Shown here piece after piece: positions 20,374 to 40,002 of a stretch of DNA of 45,005 nucleotides (positions within the stretch are counted from its first letter, which is position 1; each line of letters begins with the position of its first letter). Source of the stretch: a virus. A model generated the notes under the pieces. That model was not told the DNA's origin, searched no databases, and was given only the letters and a program-made list of their open reading frames with translations. A program made the position numbers and the translations under genes. The DNA lies in the IMG/VR virus record IMGVR_UViG_3300045988_045233, positions 1 to 45,005 of that record; one strand, 5' to 3'.

Positions 20374-20577
20374 CTACTTCTTAAAACTCGCAATCTGTGA
20401 CATGACGGTCAAGATTCCGCTGAACCATGCAACGAATGGGGCTGTTTTCTCCATGAACTTCCAGATCGATGAACCGATCTGACGGACGGCTTTCTTTGGG
20501 AGTGATCGCTTGTATCGTTTCCACGCTTCTTTGTCCGCCCGGATGAACGGTTCAATCTCTTTGTTCCGAATCTTCAT
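20374..20577 (-). CDS. Small hypothetical protein (67 aa) with a hydrophobic C-terminus
   Basis: ATGA overlap with the upstream XRE gene. Confidence 0.45.
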   Translation of the reverse strand: MKIRNKEIEPFIRADKEAWKRYKRSLPKKAVRQIGSSIWKFMEKTAPFVAWFSGILTVMSQIASFKK

Positions 20578-20927
20578 TCTTTCCCCTTCGCTGCCTCAAG
20601 TGCAGCGTCAAGCATTTTTTCAAACATAACCCTTTGCGCAGGGTTAAGCTGCTCATACTTATATAGTATGGCTTTAGCGTGCGCATTCAGCTCACTCTCT
20701 TCACTGGGAGTGTGCTTTTCTTTTTGCTCCGGTGCTTCACCGGTCAGCTCTTCCACTGTTACACCTAGCGCATCTGCGACCGGTTTAATCATTTTTTCGG
20801 GGATATCCCGATTATTCGCAAGCATTTCAGACAGGTAACTCCGGCTTTTTCCTATCTGAGCGCACACAAATGCAAAGCTTATACCCTTGCTTTTAGCGAT
20901 TTGTTTAGCTCTTTCCACATTTCGCAT
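20574..20927 (-). CDS. XRE-family HTH regulator (CI-like side of the second switch)
   Basis: ATG at 20927 after GAGGTG. HTH SKGISFAFVCAQIGKSRSYLSEMLANNRDIP. Confidence 0.75.
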   Translation of the reverse strand: MRNVERAKQIAKSKGISFAFVCAQIGKSRSYLSEMLANNRDIPEKMIKPVADALGVTVEELTGEAPEQKEKHTPSEESELNAHAKAILYKYEQLNPAQRVMFEKMLDAALEAAKGKE

Positions 20928-20987
20928 AGAAAACACCTCGCATTTTTGTGCATCTAAACAAACTATTAGAAAATCGCAGATTCACTA

Positions 20988-21118: not shown

Positions 21119-21155
21119 CTAGCGATTTTCAAGCCCAGAAAGGAGAAATCGCTAG
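21119..21155 (+). promoter_or_regulatory. 10-bp perfect inverted repeat enclosing the Cro-like RBS
   Basis: CTAGCGATTT (21119-21128) and AAATCGCTAG (21146-21155). AAAGGAG sits in the 17-nt loop and the 3' arm ends on the first base of the GTG start. Confidence 0.5.
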
Positions 21156-21367
21156 TGAATCTTTCGAAAATTGACGAATTCAGGAAGCTGCATGGCCTAT
21201 CAAGAACGGAACTAGAGGTTGCCGCAGGCCTGAGCAATGGAGCACTCGGACGTTGGGAACGTAGCGTCTACGGCCCCAGCATCAAGCAGCTGATGAAGGT
21301 GGCCCGATACTTTAAGGTATCCGTGGACAAGCTGCTGGTGGAAGAAGAAGGGGGGAAGACAGCGTGA
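21155..21367 (+). CDS. XRE-family HTH protein (Cro-like)
   Basis: 70 aa, GTG start. HTH LSRTELEVAAGLSNGALGRWERSVYGPS. Divergent from 20574..20927. Confidence 0.7.
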   Translation: MNLSKIDEFRKLHGLSRTELEVAAGLSNGALGRWERSVYGPSIKQLMKVARYFKVSVDKLLVEEEGGKTA

Positions 21368-22199: not shown

Positions 22200-22895
22200 A
22201 TGACAGACATCATCTTATCCACCCAGAACGGCGAGCCGGTGGCATCCAGTCGCCAGATCGCTGAGAATTTTGGCAAGCGTCACAACGATGTGATGGAAGC
22301 GATTCGCAATGTTTTAGCTACGGAAAAATCCGTAACTAAATTTTTCCACGAATCATCGTTTGAGTATCGCGGCCAGACCTACCCCATGTACCTGATGAAC
22401 CGGGACGGGTTCAGCCTGCTGGTGATGGGCTTTACCGGCAAGGCGGCGCTGGAGTGGAAGCTGAAGTACATCCAGGCGTTCAACGAGATGGAAAAGAAGC
22501 TGGCCACTCCGCAGATGCCCAAGCTCAGCAAGGAGCTGCAGGCGCTGTTCCTGCTGGACGACCGCACCCAGAGGCAGAAGCAGCGGATCACGGCGCTGGA
22601 AAACAACATGGTCGTGGACTATGACCAGCAGCTTTCCCTCAAGAATGCCGTGAACCACGTTGTTGTGGAAGCTCTGGGCGGCAAGAACGCCCCGGCATAC
22701 GGCGATTCCCATGTACGGGGCATGGTTTACTGCGAGATCAACAAGGACATTCAGATGTGGTTCCGGGTCAGCAGCAGAAACAACATTCCCCGCAAGCGCT
22801 TTGACGAGGCGGTGGAGTACATCCAGCGCTGGAAGCCCAGCACCAACACCGTGATGCTGATCCAGCAGTCCAACGGCCAGACCAGCATGTTCTAA
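22200..22895 (+). CDS. Rha-family regulatory protein with an ORF6C-like C-terminal domain
   Basis: The N-terminus is a paralogue of 12096..12887 (SSRQIAENFGKRHNDVMEAIRN, YLMNRDGFSLL). The C-terminal domain is different. Confidence 0.8.
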   Translation: MTDIILSTQNGEPVASSRQIAENFGKRHNDVMEAIRNVLATEKSVTKFFHESSFEYRGQTYPMYLMNRDGFSLLVMGFTGKAALEWKLKYIQAFNEMEKKLATPQMPKLSKELQALFLLDDRTQRQKQRITALENNMVVDYDQQLSLKNAVNHVVVEALGGKNAPAYGDSHVRGMVYCEINKDIQMWFRVSSRNNIPRKRFDEAVEYIQRWKPSTNTVMLIQQSNGQTSMF

Positions 22896-23899: not shown

Positions 23900-24099
23900 G
23901 CATGACTGTATATGCTTACGCCTACCGTAAGAGCCCTCGGGGCTGCGATGTCAGACAGTTCACAGACCCGCTCACGCCGGACGAATACCCCGGGGAGCCC
24001 GCCAGCGTTAAGGCCCAGCACTGGGCAGATGAGAACATCCTACATTACGAGATGATCCAGGTGCGGGACGCTCTGGGGAACCTGCTGTACGCAAGATAA
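23896..24099 (+). CDS. Hypothetical protein (67 aa)
   Basis: Overlapping start, RBS GGAGGGG. Confidence 0.5.
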   Translation: MSMTVYAYAYRKSPRGCDVRQFTDPLTPDEYPGEPASVKAQHWADENILHYEMIQVRDALGNLLYAR

Positions 24100-24143
24100 T
24101 GCGTTTTGGATTACATAAACCACAAGATATAGGAGAAATCGGC

Positions 24144-24773
24144 ATGAAAACCAAAATTTTGAAAGTCAAGATCACCTTCCTGGAGCCGGTGCTGGGCACT
24201 TGGCCCTCCAACCAGAACGTTGCCCGGGACTTCATTGCCAGCAAGAGCCCGGATGCAGCCACGATCGAGGACGAGGTTGCCGCTCTGGGCGCGGATGCCG
24301 TGGCAGACAAGGGCATGACCGTCTTTCCCCGCAACGAGAACGGAGAGCCGGTGCTCTACGACTACCAGATCAAGGGATTCTTTAAGGATTCCTGCGGTAT
24401 GCTGGCCCGCGTGGGCGGCAAGACCGAAACAGGCAAGAAGCGGGCCGTCAACGAGAGCGGCAAGCTCTCCGCCTACAAGAAGGTCATCGACGGCCTGATC
24501 TTCCCGCAGCCCCGCATGATCCCCATCAAGGTCAACGGCAAGATCGGCGACTGCCAGCGCCCCCTGCGTGCCCAGACGGCCCAGGGTGAGCGTGTGAGCC
24601 TGGCTAACTCCGAGGAGATCCCGGCAGGCAGCACCTGCGAGTTTGAGATCCTTCTCATGGACGAATCGCTCGAGAATGCGGTTCTGGAGTGGCTGGACTA
24701 CGGCGTTCTGCGCGGCATCGGCCAGTGGAGAAACAGCGGAAAGGGCCGCTTCACCTTTGACATCATCGACTGA
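24144..24773 (+). CDS. Hypothetical protein with a RAMP-like (Cas7/Csm3-type) motif pattern
   Basis: ATG at 24144 after TAGGAGAA, 209 aa. Beta-strand start KILKVKITFLEPVLG, mid motif YQIKGFFKDS, C-terminal EEIPAGSTCEFEILL ... GIGQWRNSGKGRFTF glycine-rich loop. Confidence 0.55.
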   Translation: MKTKILKVKITFLEPVLGTWPSNQNVARDFIASKSPDAATIEDEVAALGADAVADKGMTVFPRNENGEPVLYDYQIKGFFKDSCGMLARVGGKTETGKKRAVNESGKLSAYKKVIDGLIFPQPRMIPIKVNGKIGDCQRPLRAQTAQGERVSLANSEEIPAGSTCEFEILLMDESLENAVLEWLDYGVLRGIGQWRNSGKGRFTFDIID

Positions 24774-25410
24774 GCAACGGCATTGCATGGATAGGATTTG
24801 ATCTGCTACGGCAATGATATGATTTGCAAAGGCGCTGAATAGCCTGTAACAGCTTTGCGAAGGCGCGGATATGTGCGCATAACTCGGCAACGGCATTGTG
24901 CTGACAAGTTTGCTCAGCAGGGGCACAGGTAGTCACTGCAGTGCAGCGCGGGGCAAAGGCAAGGCTCAGCTGGAAAGCGCAGCGCAACGGCGTAGATAGG
25001 CGCGTAGATCGCTTGGATCAGACTTGCCTCGATAAGCAAAGCAAAGGCAATGCAGGGCCTCGTGTCGAAAAGCGAAGGCAAGGCTGGGCGTGGTGTGGGC
25101 GGCAAGGCATCGCAAGGGCGTAGAGCAGATACGCGCCGCTCTGCTATGCATTGCAAAGGCATAGCACTTCATGGCTACGGCGATGCGGGGCAAAGAAAAG
25201 CTCAGCGATGGCAAAGAAACGCTGAGTTACGAAATGTTTTGCGACGGCTGTGCGGTGCTGCGTGAAGAAGGGCAAGGGCTTGGAAAAGCGGAGTGGAGCG
25301 AAGCTTTGCTATGGCATGGATAAGCCAGGCTGACCTTTGCAATGCAAAGGCAAAGAAACGCAAGTAGAGGCGGCGAAGCGCGTAGCAAAGGCAAAGCAAA
25401 GTATTCTTGA
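24774..25410. repeat. Purine-rich, ORF-poor tract of degenerate GCAAAGGC-type repeats and palindromes
   Basis: GCAAAGGC at 24826, 24953, 25041, 25153, 25344 and 25386. GCGAAGGC at 24857 and 25072. GGCAAAGAAACGC at 25210 and 25349. GCAACGGCATTG at 24774 and 24887. Palindromes at 24934-24943 and 25334-25350. Confidence 0.7.
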
Positions 25411-27318: not shown

Positions 27319-28119
27319 GTGGACGATGAAATCAGGCCGAAAGCGTTGATGATTCCATTCGACAAATTTGTGATTTTGGATATTCTTCCACCTGAGCAGT
27401 ACAAAAATACCATCACCAAGATGCGGCGGTATGTGGAGCACGGAGAGGAACCGGATGGACTGGAACCTCTGGAACAGATGGCTTTTGAAGCACTTCGACC
27501 GTTCATGGATGAGAATATTAAAACGTATCAACGTTCCGTTTTGTCTCATAGAGAATCCGGCAGTAAAGGCGGCAGACCCAAGAAAACCGAGAAAAACCAA
27601 ATGGTTATTTCAGAAAACCGAGAGAAACCAAATGGTTTTCCGGAGAAACCGGAAGAAACCAAATGCACACCAAAGTACAAAGGTCAAAGTACAAAGTACA
27701 AAGTACAGTCGTCGTCTACTATCGTAGACTCCGACACGCGCGCGGATGCGCGAGACGACTTGACGACGACCATTGTTTTTGAAGAATTCCGGGGCCGTAT
27801 CGGAAAGCTGAGCGAAACAGGCAAGAAAGAGCTGCCCGTTTACGTTGAGCGCCTTGGTGCTGACCTTGTGACAGAGATCATCCGCAAGTGCGAGGATCTG
27901 GGCGGCCACAGCTGGGCCTATGTACGCAAGGCACTGGCGGAAGCCGCCCGGCAGGGCTGCACGTCTGTGGAAGAGTACCGCAAGACAAACCCCATCGGGG
28001 CGGGGCGTGACAAACTGGTCACGCGCCCCCCAGAAGATGCAGCAAAAGCCCCCGATTTCCTCAAAAACGCTGCAAATCGCAGGCCTTTGCGCAAGAAAGG
28101 AGAGGCGAAGAGTGCCTAA
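27319..28119 (+). CDS. Replication protein with a DnaD/replisome-organiser-like C-terminal domain
   Basis: GTG after GGAAGGAGGTG. C-terminal LVTEIIRKCEDLGGHSWAYVRKALAEAARQG pattern. Confidence 0.65.
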   Translation: MDDEIRPKALMIPFDKFVILDILPPEQYKNTITKMRRYVEHGEEPDGLEPLEQMAFEALRPFMDENIKTYQRSVLSHRESGSKGGRPKKTEKNQMVISENREKPNGFPEKPEETKCTPKYKGQSTKYKVQSSSTIVDSDTRADARDDLTTTIVFEEFRGRIGKLSETGKKELPVYVERLGADLVTEIIRKCEDLGGHSWAYVRKALAEAARQGCTSVEEYRKTNPIGAGRDKLVTRPPEDAAKAPDFLKNAANRRPLRKKGEAKSA

Positions 28120-33163: not shown

Positions 33164-33239
33164 ACTCCGGCAGCTCAAGTGGTAGAGCAGCGGTCTCCAA
33201 AACCGCAGGTTGCAGGTTCGAGCCCTGCCTGGAGTGCCA
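33164..33239 (+). tRNA. tRNA-Trp (anticodon CCA), CCA-encoded
   Basis: 76-nt cloverleaf: acceptor ACTCCGG/CTGGAGT, D arm GCTC-AAGTGGTA-GAGC, anticodon arm GCGGT-CTCCAAA-ACCGC, T arm GCAGG-TTCGAGC-CCTGC, discriminator G, CCA. Position 8 is C. Confidence 0.85.
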
Positions 33240-33361: not shown

Positions 33362-33497
33362 GCCGTCATAGCTCAACTGGGAGAGCGCCGCCCATTTAAG
33401 GCGGGACAACGCTGGTGACACCACGGGAACATCGCTGCACAGCCAACCACTGCGCACATCCATTCCGTGGGTGCTGGTTCAAATCCAGCTGGCGGCT
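33362..33497 (+). ncRNA. tRNA-Lys(UUU)-like element with A33 and a 68-nt insertion at the variable-arm position
   Basis: Acceptor GCCGTCA/TGGCGGC, D arm GCTC-AACTGGGA-GAGC, anticodon arm CCGCC-CATTTAA-GGCGG, T arm GCTGG-TTCAAAT-CCAGC. Bases 33405-33472 are inserted between the anticodon and T arms. Confidence 0.4.
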
Positions 33498-33577: not shown

Positions 33578-34402
33578 ATGGCGTTCGGCGAATCGTACGA
33601 GGAGTTTGTTGAAAAGTTCAAGCCGAAAAAGACCACGGACGACTGCTATACACCGCCCGGCGTGTATGCGGTCATACGGGACTGGGCTTGCAAAGAGTAC
33701 GGCATTGACCCGGCCAAAATCGTGAGGCCATTCTACCCCGGCGGAGATTATGAGCACTACGACTACCCGGAAGGTGCTGTGGTGTTGGATAACCCGCCGT
33801 TTTCCATTCTGTCTAAAATCTGCACGTTTTACCTCGATCGTGGCATTCCGTTCTTCCTGTTCGCTCCATCTTTGACAGCGTTTTCTGGAAGGGCAAATAA
33901 TATGCGGATGAACCATATCGTTTGCGACTGTAGTATCGAGTACGAAAACGGCGCAATTGTCAGAACAAGTTTTGTGACAAGCTACGGCGGGGACATCATA
34001 GCGCAGACCGAGCCTCGCCTGACGAAGCTGGTAAACGATGAGGTGAAACGCCTGCGACGCACCAAAACGGTACAGCTGCCAAAGTATACATACCCAGATC
34101 ATATTGTGACGGCTGCATTGCTTCAACGATACAGCCGTTACGGTGTGAATTTCAAAATTCACAAAAAGGATTGCGCTCCGATTTATGCGCTGGATGCACA
34201 ACGCTCCACGGGAAAAGCTATTTTTGGCGGTGGCCTTCTGCTGTCTGATTGTGCTGCGGCTGAGAGGGATGCGGCTGAGAGGGATGCGGCTGAGAGGGCT
34301 GCGGCTGAGAGGGATGCGGCTGAGAGGGATGCGGCCATAAAATGGGAACTGTCCGCGAGGGAGCGCGCTATTGTAGAGTATTTGAACAGCCATGAAAACT
34401 GA
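33578..34402 (+). CDS. N6-adenine DNA methyltransferase-like protein with a C-terminal AAERD repeat
   Basis: ATG after GGGAGGTGA. DDCYTPP and LDNPPF (motif IV-like) present. First gene of the late operon. Confidence 0.6.
   Translation: MAFGESYEEFVEKFKPKKTTDDCYTPPGVYAVIRDWACKEYGIDPAKIVRPFYPGGDYEHYDYPEGAVVLDNPPFSILSKICTFYLDRGIPFFLFAPSLTAFSGRANNMRMNHIVCDCSIEYENGAIVRTSFVTSYGGDIIAQTEPRLTKLVNDEVKRLRRTKTVQLPKYTYPDHIVTAALLQRYSRYGVNFKIHKKDCAPIYALDAQRSTGKAIFGGGLLLSDCAAAERDAAERDAAERAAAERDAAERDAAIKWELSARERAIVEYLNSHEN
34256..34330 (+). repeat. 15-bp tandem repeat x5 (AAERD pentapeptide repeat)
   Basis: gcggctgagagggat occurs five times in tandem, with one unit carrying a single substitution. Confidence 0.9.
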
Positions 34403-38725: not shown

Positions 38726-40002
38726 TTGCGTACTATGGAAGCAAACTGAGCCCTCACATGACGGAAACGCCGGAGGGCTTTTTAATTTGCCACGATGTCA
38801 AAATCGCCCGTACCGGCACGCAGAACTATCTGGCCCGGGAGATCGGTCTGGACGGGATGCCAGAGCGTGTTCTTCAGGTGACACGAAGCGCCGAGGATGT
38901 GTTTGACCCGGCGGCAATTGCCAGTTTTGAGGGCAAAGATGTCACCAACACCCACCCCTCGGAGATGATCGTGCAGGAAAATCAGGCTGCCTACTCCAAA
39001 GGCCACGCAGAGAATGTTCGCCGAGTGGGTGATTATCTGGTGGCTGACCTGTACCTGAAAGACCCCACACTGATCTCTGAGGTCAAGAACGGGGCCATGC
39101 GGGATGTGTCCTGCGGCTATTACTGCCAGTATGAGGCAGACGGCGCAGGATACCGGCAGACCCATATCAGAGGAAATCACATCGCCATCGTGCCCCGTGG
39201 GCGCGCTGGCCGTGATGTCGCAATAAAAGATAGCGCCGCCGAACTTCCGGCGGAGAAAGGCAAGGTAAAACACATGAGCAAGAGCAAGAGTTTGCTGTCT
39301 CTGTTCGGTCTGGCGGCAAAGAACGCGGCCCCCGAAGAGCTTGACAGCATGGTGGAGACCGCTGCCGCAGCGCTGGATGCAGCACACGCTGCCGCAGCGC
39401 TGGATGCAGCACACGCTGCCGCAGCGCTGGATGCAGCACCCGCCGTTCCGGCGCAGGATGCAGCACCCGCCGTTCCGGCGCAGGATGCAGGCCCCGCTAA
39501 AGACAAAGATCCCACTGACATCCAGAACACCGCTGTTCTGGACGCACTGAACAACCTTTCCGGCAAGCTGGATCAGCTGATCGCTGCCAACACCAAAAAG
39601 GCAGAGGACAAAGAGCCGGAAGACCTGGACAAGGTGATCGCTGAAATGTCCGGCGAAAAGCCTGGCAAGAAGGAAGAGGACGAGGACGAAAGCGGCTCCA
39701 CCACTGTTCCTTCCGAGGACGAGTGCGCAAAGCCTGCCGCCAATGACAGCGGCCTGGCTCTGCTGAAAGCCATGCGCCCCATCATCAACGGCATTCAGGA
39801 CAAGGCCACCCGTGATGCCCTGTCCAAGACCCTGATCGAGCAGGTCAAGGGCACCAGCTCCGTGGATGCTATCGCAAAGGCTGCGCAGGACAGCGCCGCC
39901 GCTGCCGCCAGCGCATCCGGTAAGAGCCAGTATGAGCAGGTGTGCCAGGCTTCCCAGCTCGCTTACAACGAACGCAATCCCCACATGAAGAAGGAGGGCT
40001 AA
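38722..40002 (+). CDS. DUF2213-like protein with a scaffold-like acidic C-terminal half
   Basis: 426 aa. The N-terminal domain shows the DUF2213 pattern. The C-terminal half is Ala/Asp/Glu-rich with tandem repeats. Lies between the MuF-like and capsid genes. Confidence 0.6.
   Translation: MIAYYGSKLSPHMTETPEGFLICHDVKIARTGTQNYLAREIGLDGMPERVLQVTRSAEDVFDPAAIASFEGKDVTNTHPSEMIVQENQAAYSKGHAENVRRVGDYLVADLYLKDPTLISEVKNGAMRDVSCGYYCQYEADGAGYRQTHIRGNHIAIVPRGRAGRDVAIKDSAAELPAEKGKVKHMSKSKSLLSLFGLAAKNAAPEELDSMVETAAAALDAAHAAAALDAAHAAAALDAAPAVPAQDAAPAVPAQDAGPAKDKDPTDIQNTAVLDALNNLSGKLDQLIAANTKKAEDKEPEDLDKVIAEMSGEKPGKKEEDEDESGSTTVPSEDECAKPAANDSGLALLKAMRPIINGIQDKATRDALSKTLIEQVKGTSSVDAIAKAAQDSAAAAASASGKSQYEQVCQASQLAYNERNPHMKKEG
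39361..39495 (+). repeat. 27-bp tandem repeats (AAALDAAHA x2.9, then APAVPAQDA x2)
   Basis: gctgccgcagcgctggatgcagcacac is repeated, followed by a repeated cgccgttccggcgcaggatgcagcacc unit. Confidence 0.85.

What the first reader, a model, noticed from the sequence alone, without database searches (positions are those of the whole stretch)
24144..24773. Early-region protein with a RAMP-like (Cas7/Csm3-type) motif pattern and no CRISPR-Cas context
The 209-aa product has three features that recall RAMP-superfamily RNA-binding proteins:
- It starts with a beta-strand followed by a glycine (KILKVKITFLEPVLGTWP).
- It has a mid-protein YQIKGFFKDS motif, reminiscent of the (S/T)-x-K-G-x-x-R segment.
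- It ends with EEIPAGSTCEFEILL, then about 20 aa, then GIGQWRNSGKGRFTF. This looks like the (E)-x-(I/V)-P-x-G-x-x-F-x-F-x-(I/L) strand plus the C-terminal glycine-rich loop.

There are no cas genes or CRISPR array in the genome. The gene is immediately followed by a 640-bp repeat-rich non-coding tract. A solo RAMP-like protein in a phage early operon would be unusual. It could be an RNA processing or binding factor, or an anti-CRISPR-type decoy.
Basis: inference. Interest (0 to 1): 0.62.

Follow-up and report, generated by a model that had tools for sequence, protein, structure and literature searches.

The report
Phage VIPR guide-RNA system (Vipr)
The gene encodes a lone Cas7-like protein, and the repeat-rich stretch after it is most likely that protein's array of five-base-repeat guide RNAs; this pairing is a "VIPR" system, a CRISPR-like phage weapon first described in 2026 preprints, so the hunch was right but the kind is already known.

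Summary
Window 24144-24773(+) encodes a 209-aa protein with the stated motifs. It sits in a complete 45-kb temperate phage genome, probably of Faecalibacterium, with no CRISPR array and no Cas1 or Pfam-RAMP match.

The RAMP reading is supported:
- The AlphaFold model is confident (pLDDT 91.8).
- All 50 best PDB fold matches are Cas7-family subunits (type VII Cas7, Csm3, Csf2, Cas7-11).

It is not a CRISPR protein and shows no sign of being a decoy. It aligns end-to-end with the experimentally studied Vipr of Escherichia phage SUSP1 (hhalign E 2.6e-5).

The downstream tract (24774-25405) is a chain of about 20 blocks. Each block has 4-8 pentamers G-Y-N-N-N plus one extra G. A 5-nt-periodic array directly adjoins the gene in 38 of 39 full-length divergent bacterial loci and follows it in all 81 viral loci. 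No neighbouring gene is conserved with it.

This matches VIPR systems (bioRxiv 10.64898/2026.04.26.720920), in their non-canonical YNNNG, apparently "staggered" form. The two residues that read the first G in SUSP1 Vipr are replaced here, which fits the loss of that G from the repeat.

I could not find targets or establish the pairing rule. This scan has already noted VIPR on other DNA many times. Verdict: a new member of a known kind.

The parts
24131..24136 (+). Ribosome-binding site (AGGAGA) 7 nt upstream of the ATG of vipr
   Evidence: Read directly from the sequence. Homologs start at the equivalent MK..K..V residues, which supports the 24144 start over the upstream ATG at 24099.
24144..24773 (+). 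vipr gene: 209-aa minimal RAMP with a single RRM core, a thumb beta-hairpin (about residues 135-159) and a glycine-rich loop (residues 189-202, GIGQWRNSGKGRF)
   Evidence: Translation. AF2 model: pLDDT 91.8, pTM 0.87, with secondary structure beta1, helix 73-87, long hairpin 135-159, strand, helix 174-188, G-loop, strand. Foldseek against PDB: top 50 all Cas7 family. Profile hits to type VII Cas7 and Csm4. hhalign to SUSP1 Vipr: E 2.6e-5 over 175 columns.
24774..25405 (+). Candidate vrRNA (guide RNA) array: about 20 head-to-tail blocks, each of 4-8 (once 12) pentamers G-Y-N-N-N plus one extra G. The extra G gives block lengths of 5n+1 and a +1 register shift at every junction (junction motif GCNAN-G|GC).
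   Evidence: 19 same-strand GCNANGGC motifs in and just beyond the tract, against 31 on both strands of the remaining 44 kb. Autocorrelation peaks at lags 5, 10, 21, 26, 31, 36 and 41. Phase segmentation gives G 0.89 and C 0.67 at the fixed positions. The same architecture occurs in 81 loci, with block lengths peaking at 26/31/36 and a +1 shift at 883 of 1001 junctions. The RNA is not more structured than shuffles, z = +0.59. No terminator-like site lies between gene and array.
24780..25098 (+). Gene-proximal, conserved half of the array. Most well-defined blocks here are shared with many sister phages.
   Evidence: Blocks starting at 24780, 24811, 24923, 24959, 25011 and 25078 are found identically in 6-14 of 16 phages whose Vipr is 99-100% identical. 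Two other proximal blocks, at 24832 and 25047, are shared by only 0 and 3.
25118..25390 (+). Gene-distal, hypervariable half of the array. Blocks here are unique or nearly unique to this phage.
   Evidence: Blocks starting at 25118, 25159, 25180, 25211, 25247, 25278, 25314 and 25350 are shared with only 0-3 of the 16 sister phages. Those 17 phages carry 118 distinct blocks between them.
25278..25313 (+). Example of one block (candidate single vrRNA): GCTTG GAAAA GCGGA GTGGA GCGAA GCTTT GCTAT + G
   Evidence: Segmentation. The terminal unit follows the conserved punctuation pattern GC(A/G/T)A(N)+G. The last unit is GCAAA, GCAAC or GCAAT in 279 of 583 unique blocks.

Best explanation
The gene and the tract after it form a VIPR (Viral Interference Programmable Repeat) system carried by a temperate gut phage, probably of Faecalibacterium.

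The 209-aa protein is a Vipr: a minimal, single-RRM relative of Cas7. The roughly 630-nt tract is its guide-RNA array, most likely transcribed together with the gene.

By analogy with the studied SUSP1 system (inferred, not shown here), Vipr protomers would polymerise along each RNA, one per pentamer. They would hold the fixed G-Y bases in protein pockets and expose the variable bases to pair discontinuously with double-stranded DNA of a competing phage, prophage or satellite. That would silence the competitor's transcription.

This lineage differs from the studied type II systems in four ways:
- Only G-Y of the canonical G-G-Y is fixed, so there are three variable bases per unit.
- Guides are short blocks of 4-8 units.
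- Blocks are chained with a one-base register shift and closed by a conserved GCAAN+G unit, not by a long structured tail.
- No accessory (vap) gene travels with it.

Shown here: the fold, the similarity to SUSP1 Vipr, the array architecture, the co-inheritance of protein and array, and the rapid turnover of array content.

Inferred: transcription and processing of the array, RNP formation, DNA targeting and silencing.
For: Protein fold
- The AF2 model is confident: pLDDT 91.8, pTM 0.87.
- All 50 best PDB fold matches are Cas7-family backbone subunits. Type VII Cas7 is best (E 6.7e-9, TM 0.55-0.59), followed by Csm3, Csf2 and Cas7-11.
- The family profile hits type VII Cas7 (E 9.2e-6) and Csm4 (E 1.4e-3) over the strand, helix and G-loop.
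- 19 of 71 family members weakly hit TIGR01903.

Link to a characterised Vipr
- In phage SUSP1, my YNNGG detector finds one upstream and three downstream arrays around agp039/agp038, as published. agp039 carries the published contact residues H17, E71, M72, R138, C173, D177, W178 and R179 (preprint 10.64898/2026.04.26.720927).
- hhalign of my family against agp039 gives E 2.6e-5, probability 75% and 175 collinear columns. Pairwise BLASTP gives E 5e-4.
- The G-loops align as GVGDWRP-RFGRF against GIGQWRNSGKGRF. The G2 and Y3 contacts (W, R) are kept. The G1 readers are replaced (D177 to Q194, H17 to T19), which matches the loss of the first G in the repeat.
- Natural controls agree. A second Vipr in L119 has the loop G-E-W-R and sits next to a canonical GGY/NN array. 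The Hydrogenobaculum phage 1 homolog has S-G-W-R and a GY/NNN-type array.

Array
- 5-nt periodicity and block structure.
- Substitutions between near-identical blocks fall on unit positions 0-4 as 41, 151, 188, 285 and 243. The G is nearly fixed and three positions are variable.
- 583 unique blocks among 1050 block instances.
- 118 distinct blocks among 17 phages with 99-100% identical Vipr, with a conserved proximal half and a variable distal half.

Co-inheritance
- A motif-free autocorrelation scan finds a 5-nt-periodic region directly adjoining the gene in 38 of 39 full-length genome loci at 47-84% identity, from Faecalibacterium to a Dehalococcoidia MAG. The exception is L113; L123 is truncated.
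- No window neighbour gene is conserved with it.

Context
- Complete phage genome with no CRISPR array, Cas1 or Pfam RAMP match.
- The preprint lists YNNNG repeats and staggered arrays among VIPR variants.
Against:
- No targets were found under any pairing or skip model:
  - in about 1 Mb of related phage and prophage DNA, compared with mirror controls;
  - in IMG/VR, one guide, exact match;
  - in 91 Faecalibacterium genomes, one guide, two models, up to 2 mismatches.
- Similarity to SUSP1 Vipr is only moderate. hhalign probability is 75%, and a plain HMM search of the SUSP1 genome finds nothing.
- The canonical YNNGG consensus occurs only once as a 4-unit run in the tract.
- No structured 3' tail and no vap gene were found.
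- hhalign places the SUSP1 thumb residue R138 opposite E157 rather than an arginine, so the thumb contact is not confirmed at residue level.
- I could not see the preprints' figures or data tables. The match to 'staggered arrays' rests on a figure legend, and the VIPR type (I-VII) is not assigned.
Confidence: 0.85

Rival explanations
1. The protein is a Cas7-like RNA-binding protein that uses the tract RNA for something other than guiding DNA recognition. Examples would be an RNA scaffold or sponge, or a translational or RNA-stability regulator acting on messenger RNA.
For: No DNA targets were found under any model tested. When the three variable bases are concatenated, ribosome-binding-site-like strings are slightly enriched: 26 blocks against 18.2 +/- 3.3 in unit-shuffled controls. 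Cas7 relatives in type III and type VII systems act on RNA.
Against: The RBS enrichment is weak (z about 2.4) and is one of several statistics examined. The nearest characterised relative binds double-stranded DNA. Rapid cassette-like turnover of the blocks suggests changing external targets rather than a fixed housekeeping role.
Confidence: 0.07
2. The tract is the phage replication origin or another array of protein-binding DNA iterons. The protein binds it as DNA, and the 5.17-nt period reflects half-helical-turn phasing.
For: The period (31 nt per six units, about 5.17 nt) is half a B-DNA turn. The tract lies just upstream of the recombination and replication module: SSAP-like protein, SSB, DnaD-like protein.
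Against: All motifs lie on one strand. Block content is hypervariable among phages with essentially identical proteins, whereas origin iterons are normally conserved copies of one binding site. The array follows the vipr gene in loci whose replication genes differ or lie elsewhere. A more typical origin candidate lies inside the DnaD-like gene: 31-nt x 2.8 and 7-nt x 5.3 tandem repeats at 27581-27707. The protein has an RNA-binding RAMP fold and aligns with Vipr.
Confidence: 0.04
3. The protein is a decoy Cas7 (anti-CRISPR) that poisons host type III or type I effector complexes or sequesters their crRNAs.
For: The fold resembles Csm3 and type VII Cas7. The gene lies in an early-region position typical of counter-defence genes.
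Against: Identity to any Cas7 is only 9-17%, too low for co-assembly mimicry to be assumed. The strictly co-inherited pentamer array has no role in a decoy model. The tract contains no CRISPR-repeat-like units. The family is conserved across hosts of many phyla.
Confidence: 0.03

Closest known systems
VIPR systems (Vipr protein plus vrRNA). Studied examples are the type II systems of Escherichia phage SUSP1 and a Pseudomonas fulva prophage. Sources: bioRxiv 10.64898/2026.04.26.720920, 10.64898/2026.04.26.720927, 10.64898/2026.10.15.759431
   Same: - A phage-borne minimal RAMP with RRM core, thumb and G-loop.
- No CRISPR array or cas genes.
- A flanking same-strand array of pentanucleotide repeats in which fixed bases alternate with hypervariable ones.
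- The W-R pair of the G-loop that holds G2 and Y3 is kept.
- Array content differs between closely related phages.
   Different: - The repeat is G-Y-N-N-N (the preprint's 'YNNNG' variant) rather than GGY/NN.
- The G1-reading residues are replaced (H17 to T, D177 to Q).
- Guides are 4-8 units rather than 9-16.
- There is no long structured 3' tail. Each block ends in a conserved GCAAN unit plus one G, which shifts the register by +1. This resembles the preprint's 'staggered arrays', but I judged that from a legend only.
- No vap gene.
- The host is a gut Firmicute.
- The pairing rule and the targets are not established.
Type VII CRISPR-Cas Cas7 (PDB 8yhd, 8yhe, 8z4j; catalytically inactive backbone subunit, about 200 aa)
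   Same: Best fold match (E 6.7e-9, TM 0.55-0.59) and best sequence-profile match (E 9.2e-6). Similar size. Same strand, helix and glycine-rich loop at the C-terminus.
   Different: Type VII Cas7 works with Cas5, Cas14 and a CRISPR array, and binds crRNA in a 6-nt register. Here there are no partner cas genes and no CRISPR array, and the RNA period is 5 nt. Identity is 12-17%.
Type III-A Csm3 (for example Lactococcus lactis, Enterococcus italicus, Streptococcus thermophilus Csm complexes)
   Same: Same RAMP fold. The mid-protein (S/T)xKGxxR-like segment (here YQIKGFFK) and the C-terminal G-loop are shared.
   Different: Csm3 is an RNase subunit of a multi-protein effector guided by CRISPR RNA. 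This protein stands alone with a pentamer array.

Membership tests
VIPR system | Vipr protein: a minimal RAMP with a single RRM core, a thumb hairpin and a glycine-rich loop | tested here: met
   AF2 model with pLDDT 91.8 showing beta-alpha-beta core, long hairpin 135-159 and G-loop 189-202. Foldseek top 50 hits are all Cas7 family. Profile hits to Cas7 and Csm4 over the G-loop region.
VIPR system | Sequence relationship to an experimentally characterised Vipr (SUSP1 agp039) | tested here: met
   hhalign E 2.6e-5, probability 74.8%, 175 collinear columns. BLASTP E 5e-4. The link is moderate: a plain HMM search of the SUSP1 genome finds nothing.
VIPR system | RNA-contact residues of the G-loop and thumb (SUSP1: D177, W178, R179, R138, H17) | tested here: inconclusive
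   W178/R179 align to the nearly invariant W195/R196. D177 aligns to Q194 and H17 to T19; both of these are G1 readers. R138 aligns to E157 in a low-confidence stretch, although R139, R142 and R150 on the hairpin are conserved.
VIPR system | Flanking intergenic array of tandem pentamers with fixed bases alternating with hypervariable bases (canonical GGY/NN; described variants NNNGG, YNNNG, NNNNG) | tested here: met
   G-Y-N-N-N units with G at 0.89-0.94. Substitutions by unit position: 41, 151, 188, 285, 243. Strict YNNGG is absent, so this is the YNNNG variant named in the preprint.
VIPR system | Co-occurrence of protein and array across divergent relatives | tested here: met
   A 5-nt-periodic region directly adjoins the gene in 38 of 39 full-length genome loci at 47-84% identity (exception L113), and follows it in all 81 viral loci.
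VIPR system | Encoded by a virus or provirus without a CRISPR array or cas genes | tested here: met
   Complete phage record with terminal repeats. Lysogeny switch and Rha-type anti-repressor nearby. No CRISPR-like array. No PF03787 or PF01867 match.
VIPR system | Conserved 3' tail capping each vrRNA (a pseudoknot in the SUSP1 clade) | tested here: not met
   No structured element: fold z = +0.59. Each block instead ends in a conserved GCAAN unit plus one G. The preprint describes tail-less 'staggered' arrays as a variant, so this feature is not universal.
VIPR system | Accessory vap gene next to vipr | tested here: not met
   None of 18 neighbouring window ORFs is conserved with vipr in 40 divergent loci. 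The preprint names six vap genes for seven types, so a vap-less type is compatible.
VIPR system | vrRNAs are expressed and co-purify with Vipr | not testable with these tools
Only indirect support is available: same strand as the gene, and no terminator between gene and array.
VIPR system | Variable bases match DNA of competing mobile elements under a gapped pairing rule | tested here: inconclusive
   No excess over mirror controls for 13-16 pairing/skip models in 0.34-1 Mb of phage DNA. No hits for one guide in IMG/VR or in 91 Faecalibacterium genomes. These databases are small compared with those used in the preprint.
CRISPR-Cas Cas7 (type III or type VII backbone subunit) | Encoded with partner cas genes (Cas5, Cas10/Cas14 and so on) and a CRISPR array | tested here: not met
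   None in the complete genome for the models run. The neighbours are phage regulatory and recombination genes.
CRISPR-Cas Cas7 (type III or type VII backbone subunit) | Passes a curated Cas7/RAMP family model | tested here: not met
   No Pfam hit. The best NCBIfam hit is TIGR01903 at 11.2 bits against a cut-off of 55. No PADLOC hit.

The most novel reading that the evidence does not exclude
This very large gut-phage lineage of VIPR may use a code different from the published one-base-skip GGY/NN rule. It would have three programmable bases per pentamer, because the pocket for the first G has been lost (H17 to T, D177 to Q). Its guides would be mini-guides of 4-8 units separated by a GCAAN+G punctuation mark. 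New cassettes would be gained or exchanged at the gene-distal end of the array by an unknown mechanism. If so, the pairing geometry, the guide processing and the way arrays diversify would all be new relative to what has been shown experimentally.
Probability: 0.3. Interest if true: 0.65.

Novelty: new member of a known kind. Interest (0 to 1): 0.38.

Why it matters
VIPR is a newly described RNA-guided DNA-recognition system proposed to predate CRISPR, so well-characterised new members help map its diversity.

This member belongs to a very large family:
- More than 7,700 clusters at 90% identity and 1,715 at 50%.
- Centred on phages of abundant human-gut Firmicutes such as Faecalibacterium.

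It therefore suggests that VIPR-mediated conflict between phages is common in the gut virome.

It also offers a natural experiment on the code. The protein residues that read the first G are replaced, and the repeat has lost that G. That makes a specific, testable prediction about how protein pockets set the repeat consensus and how many bases per unit are programmable.

For annotation, it explains a recurrent "orphan RAMP plus purine-rich repeat tract" feature that this scan has flagged repeatedly.

Tried and rejected
1. Direct family assignment failed. Pfam, PADLOC and PDB sequence searches with the single protein found nothing. PHROGs and NCBIfam gave only sub-threshold hits.

2. Strict canonical YNNGG repeats occur only as one 4-unit run in the tract. 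I rejected the canonical consensus and derived the unit without assuming one.

3. I considered a 6-nt Cas7 register for the tract and rejected it. The period is 5 nt with +1 shifts.

4. An HMM search of the SUSP1 genome with my family profile found nothing. The link needed hhalign after I located the SUSP1 locus by its arrays.

5. Target prediction gave no result:
- Models pairing unit positions 2-3, 3-4, 2-3-4, 1-2-3 or 1-2-3-4 with skips of 0-3 showed no excess over mirrored guides, first in 337 kb and then in about 1 Mb of DNA. The larger set included ten complete sister-clade genomes.
- The only excess was at period 5, which simply re-finds other arrays.
- One exact scan of IMG/VR and two scans of 91 Faecalibacterium genomes found nothing.
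- A single 1-mismatch hit in G092 is within chance.

6. Ribosome-binding-site reading: block 25278 decodes to AAAGGAGGAGAATTTTATG. Across 583 blocks the enrichment is weak (z about 2.4), so I did not adopt the idea.

7. A search for a conserved accessory gene found none.

Full report
**Observation**

Window 24144-24773(+) is an intact 209-aa ORF with a good ribosome-binding site. The motifs are real family signatures:
- In an alignment of 71 cluster representatives (each from a different 50%-identity cluster), G78, K81, R139, S156, G191 and G201 are invariant.
- The loop Q194-W195-R196-N197 is at least 90% conserved.

The window is a complete 45,005-bp virus record with direct terminal repeats. 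The gene sits in the early region of a temperate phage:
- Upstream are a cI-like repressor (20574-20936, minus strand), a Cro-like regulator (21155-21367) and a Rha/ORF6C anti-repressor (22200-22895).
- Downstream are an SSAP/exonuclease-like protein, SSB and a DnaD-like protein.

No CRISPR-like array exists in the genome. Pfam RAMP and Cas1 models find nothing, while both respond in control genomes.

**Is it a RAMP?**

Single-sequence searches were almost blank. The family, however, is very large: more than 7,700 clusters at 90% identity and 1,715 at 50% identity.

A profile of diverse members matched three sets of PDB chains over the C-terminal strand, helix and glycine-rich loop:
- the catalytically inactive Cas7 of type VII CRISPR-Cas (E 9.2e-6);
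- two Csm4 sequences at E 1.4e-3;
- a third Csm4 at E 0.023.

AlphaFold2 with that alignment gave a confident model, pLDDT 91.8 and pTM 0.87. Foldseek against the PDB returned only Cas7-family backbone subunits in the top 50: type VII Cas7, Csm3 from several species, Csf2 and Cas7-11 domains. The best hit had E 6.7e-9, probability 1.00 and TM 0.55-0.59.

In the viral structure library, a 72%-identical protein is already named 'Cas system-associated RAMP superfamily protein'.

**What the tract is**

The roughly 630 nt after the stop codon carry 19 same-strand GCNANGGC motifs (18 in the tract, one just beyond it), against 31 on both strands of the remaining 44 kb. Sequence autocorrelation peaks at lags 5, 10, 21, 26, 31, 36 and 41.

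A phase-tracking segmentation that assumes no consensus resolves the tract as follows:
- It is a chain of about 20 blocks.
- Each block has 4-8 (once 12) pentamers G-Y-N-N-N, with G at 89% and C at 67%.
- Each block is closed by one extra G. This makes block lengths 5n+1, shifts the register by +1, and creates the junction motif.

The same architecture holds in all 81 viral loci that carry a close homolog:
- G is 94% at the fixed position.
- Block lengths peak at 26, 31 and 36 nt.
- The register shift is +1 at 883 of 1,001 junctions.

The last unit of a block is conserved: GCAAA, GCAAC or GCAAT in 279 of 583 unique blocks. The RNA is not predicted to be more structured than shuffled sequence (z = +0.59). 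No terminator-like site separates gene and array.

**Identification as VIPR**

According to those preprints:
- A minimal phage-encoded RAMP (Vipr) polymerises on vrRNAs made of GGY/NN pentamers.
- The complex recognises double-stranded DNA through a gapped code.
- It silences competing mobile elements.

I tested the defining features myself.

*Positive control.* My detector recovers one upstream and three downstream YNNGG arrays around agp039/agp038 of phage SUSP1. agp039 carries the published contact residues.

*Similarity to SUSP1 Vipr.* My family aligns end-to-end with agp039: hhalign E 2.6e-5, probability 75%, 175 columns; BLASTP E 5e-4.

*G-loop comparison.* The loops align as GVGDWRP-RFGRF against GIGQWRNSGKGRF.
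- The tryptophan and arginine that hold G2 and Y3 are kept.
- Both residues that read G1 are replaced (D177 to Q194, H17 to T19). This matches an array in which only G-Y of G-G-Y is fixed.

*Natural controls.*
- A Lachnospiraceae prophage (L119) carries two systems 3 kb apart. One is a homolog of my protein with a GY/NNN array. The other is a protein that matches SUSP1 Vipr directly, has the loop G-E-W-R and sits next to a canonical GGY/NN array.
- The distant Hydrogenobaculum phage 1 homolog has S-G-W-R and a GY/NNN-type array.

The preprint itself lists YNNNG repeats among alternative vrRNAs. [quoted passage not shown] That resembles the +1 junctions here, but I could not see the figure.

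**Co-inheritance and dynamics**

Forty bacterial loci at 47-84% identity carry homologs. The closest are Faecalibacterium MAGs; others are Oscillospiraceae and Lachnospiraceae, and the most distant is a Dehalococcoidia MAG.

A motif-free autocorrelation scan finds a 5-nt-periodic region directly adjoining the gene in 38 of the 39 loci with a full-length gene. The exception is L113, whose only signal is weak and about 840 nt downstream; L123 is truncated. Away from the gene there are only two other periodic regions: a small one in L106 and the canonical array in L119.

None of 18 neighbouring window ORFs is conserved with the gene. The functional unit is therefore the protein plus the array, without an accessory gene.

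Between near-identical blocks, substitutions fall on unit positions 0-4 as 41, 151, 188, 285 and 243. The G is nearly fixed and three positions behave as variable.

Among 17 phages whose Vipr is 99-100% identical:
- There are 118 distinct blocks.
- Six gene-proximal blocks are shared by 6-14 of the 16 sisters.
- Distal blocks are shared by 0-3.

The array thus turns over in cassettes much faster than the protein, and it shows polarity.

**Mechanism**

Shown here:
- the fold;
- similarity to Vipr;
- the array anatomy;
- co-inheritance of protein and array;
- hypervariability of array content.

Inferred from the SUSP1 work:
- The array is transcribed with vipr and yields short RNAs.
- Vipr protomers bind one pentamer each, sequester G-Y and present the variable bases.
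- The complex binds matching double-stranded DNA of rival phages or prophages and represses them.

An information argument suggests three programmable bases per unit. With 4-7 units, two bases per unit would give only 8-14 specified bases, whereas three per unit gives 12-21. That is close to the 18-32 of type II guides. This argument is inference only.

**What failed**

- I could not find targets. Thirteen to sixteen pairing and skip models showed no excess over mirrored guides in 0.34-1 Mb of related phage and prophage DNA.
- One guide had no exact match in IMG/VR.
- The same guide had no match with up to 2 mismatches in 91 Faecalibacterium genomes under two models.
- A ribosome-binding-site-like reading of some blocks is statistically weak.

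**Rivals**

- Replication origin: disfavoured by strand asymmetry, by hypervariable content, by linkage to vipr rather than to replication genes, and by a better origin candidate inside the DnaD-like gene.
- Anti-CRISPR decoy: does not explain the co-inherited array.
- Non-guide RNA role: cannot be excluded while targets remain unknown.

**Verdict**

The locus is a member of the recently described VIPR systems. It has a non-canonical G-Y-N-N-N repeat, short chained guides and no accessory gene. This scan has already noted VIPR many times on other DNA. It is a new member of a known kind. The open points of interest are its pairing code and its targets.

Noticed in passing
L119:6001-7150 and L119:9832-10775: A Lachnospiraceae MAG prophage carries two VIPR systems about 3 kb apart. 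One is a 54%-identical homolog of the window protein with a GY/NNN array. The other is a 213-aa protein that matches SUSP1 Vipr (phmmer E 2.4e-11), has the G-loop GIGEWRP, and is followed by a canonical GGY/NN array (36 GGYNNGGY matches).
   Followed up: partly
L158:2261-3760 (Hydrogenobaculum phage 1, KP282676.1, protein ALG96927.1): A hot-spring Aquificae phage encodes a 256-aa distant homolog (25% identity; G-loop GHSGWRTARYGRY), annotated as hypothetical. It is followed by about 700 nt of 5-nt-periodic G-Y-N-N-N-type sequence (39 GYNNNGY matches against 1 GGYNN). This is probably an unannotated VIPR system.
   Followed up: partly
window 27581-27707: Tandem repeats of 31 nt x 2.8 copies and 7 nt (CAAAGTA) x 5.3 copies lie inside the DnaD-like/DUF6291 replication gene (27319-28119). 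This is a plausible phage replication origin of the iterons-within-initiator-gene kind.
   Followed up: no
window 33164-33236 and 33362-33497: Two tRNA genes by Rfam. The second match spans 136 nt for a 71-position model, so it contains a roughly 65-nt insertion (an intron or another insert).
   Followed up: no
window 34255-34335 and 39359-39497: In-frame-sized tandem repeats (15 nt x 5.4 copies; 27 nt x 4-5 copies) in the late, structural part of the genome. They are likely repeat-containing structural proteins.
   Followed up: no
window 24780-25390, compared with L001-L016: The array shows polarity. Six gene-proximal blocks are shared by 6-14 of 16 sister phages, while distal blocks are nearly unique. 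This suggests that cassettes are exchanged or added at the distal end. No acquisition machinery is evident.
   Followed up: partly
BFVD entries A0A8S5R426, A7WKN2, A0A0A0P750: A 72%-identical Siphoviridae protein is already labelled 'Cas system-associated RAMP superfamily protein'. Weaker fold matches (E 3e-4 and 1.3e-3) are to uncharacterised proteins of a Betalipothrixvirus and of Los Azufres archaeal virus 2. This is in line with the preprint's statement that archaeal viruses carry Vipr.
   Followed up: no
L022, L029, L031, L032, L035, L037: In these sister-clade phages a small ORF is inserted directly after vipr, and the pentamer array starts about 195-216 nt further downstream instead of at the stop codon.
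   Followed up: no
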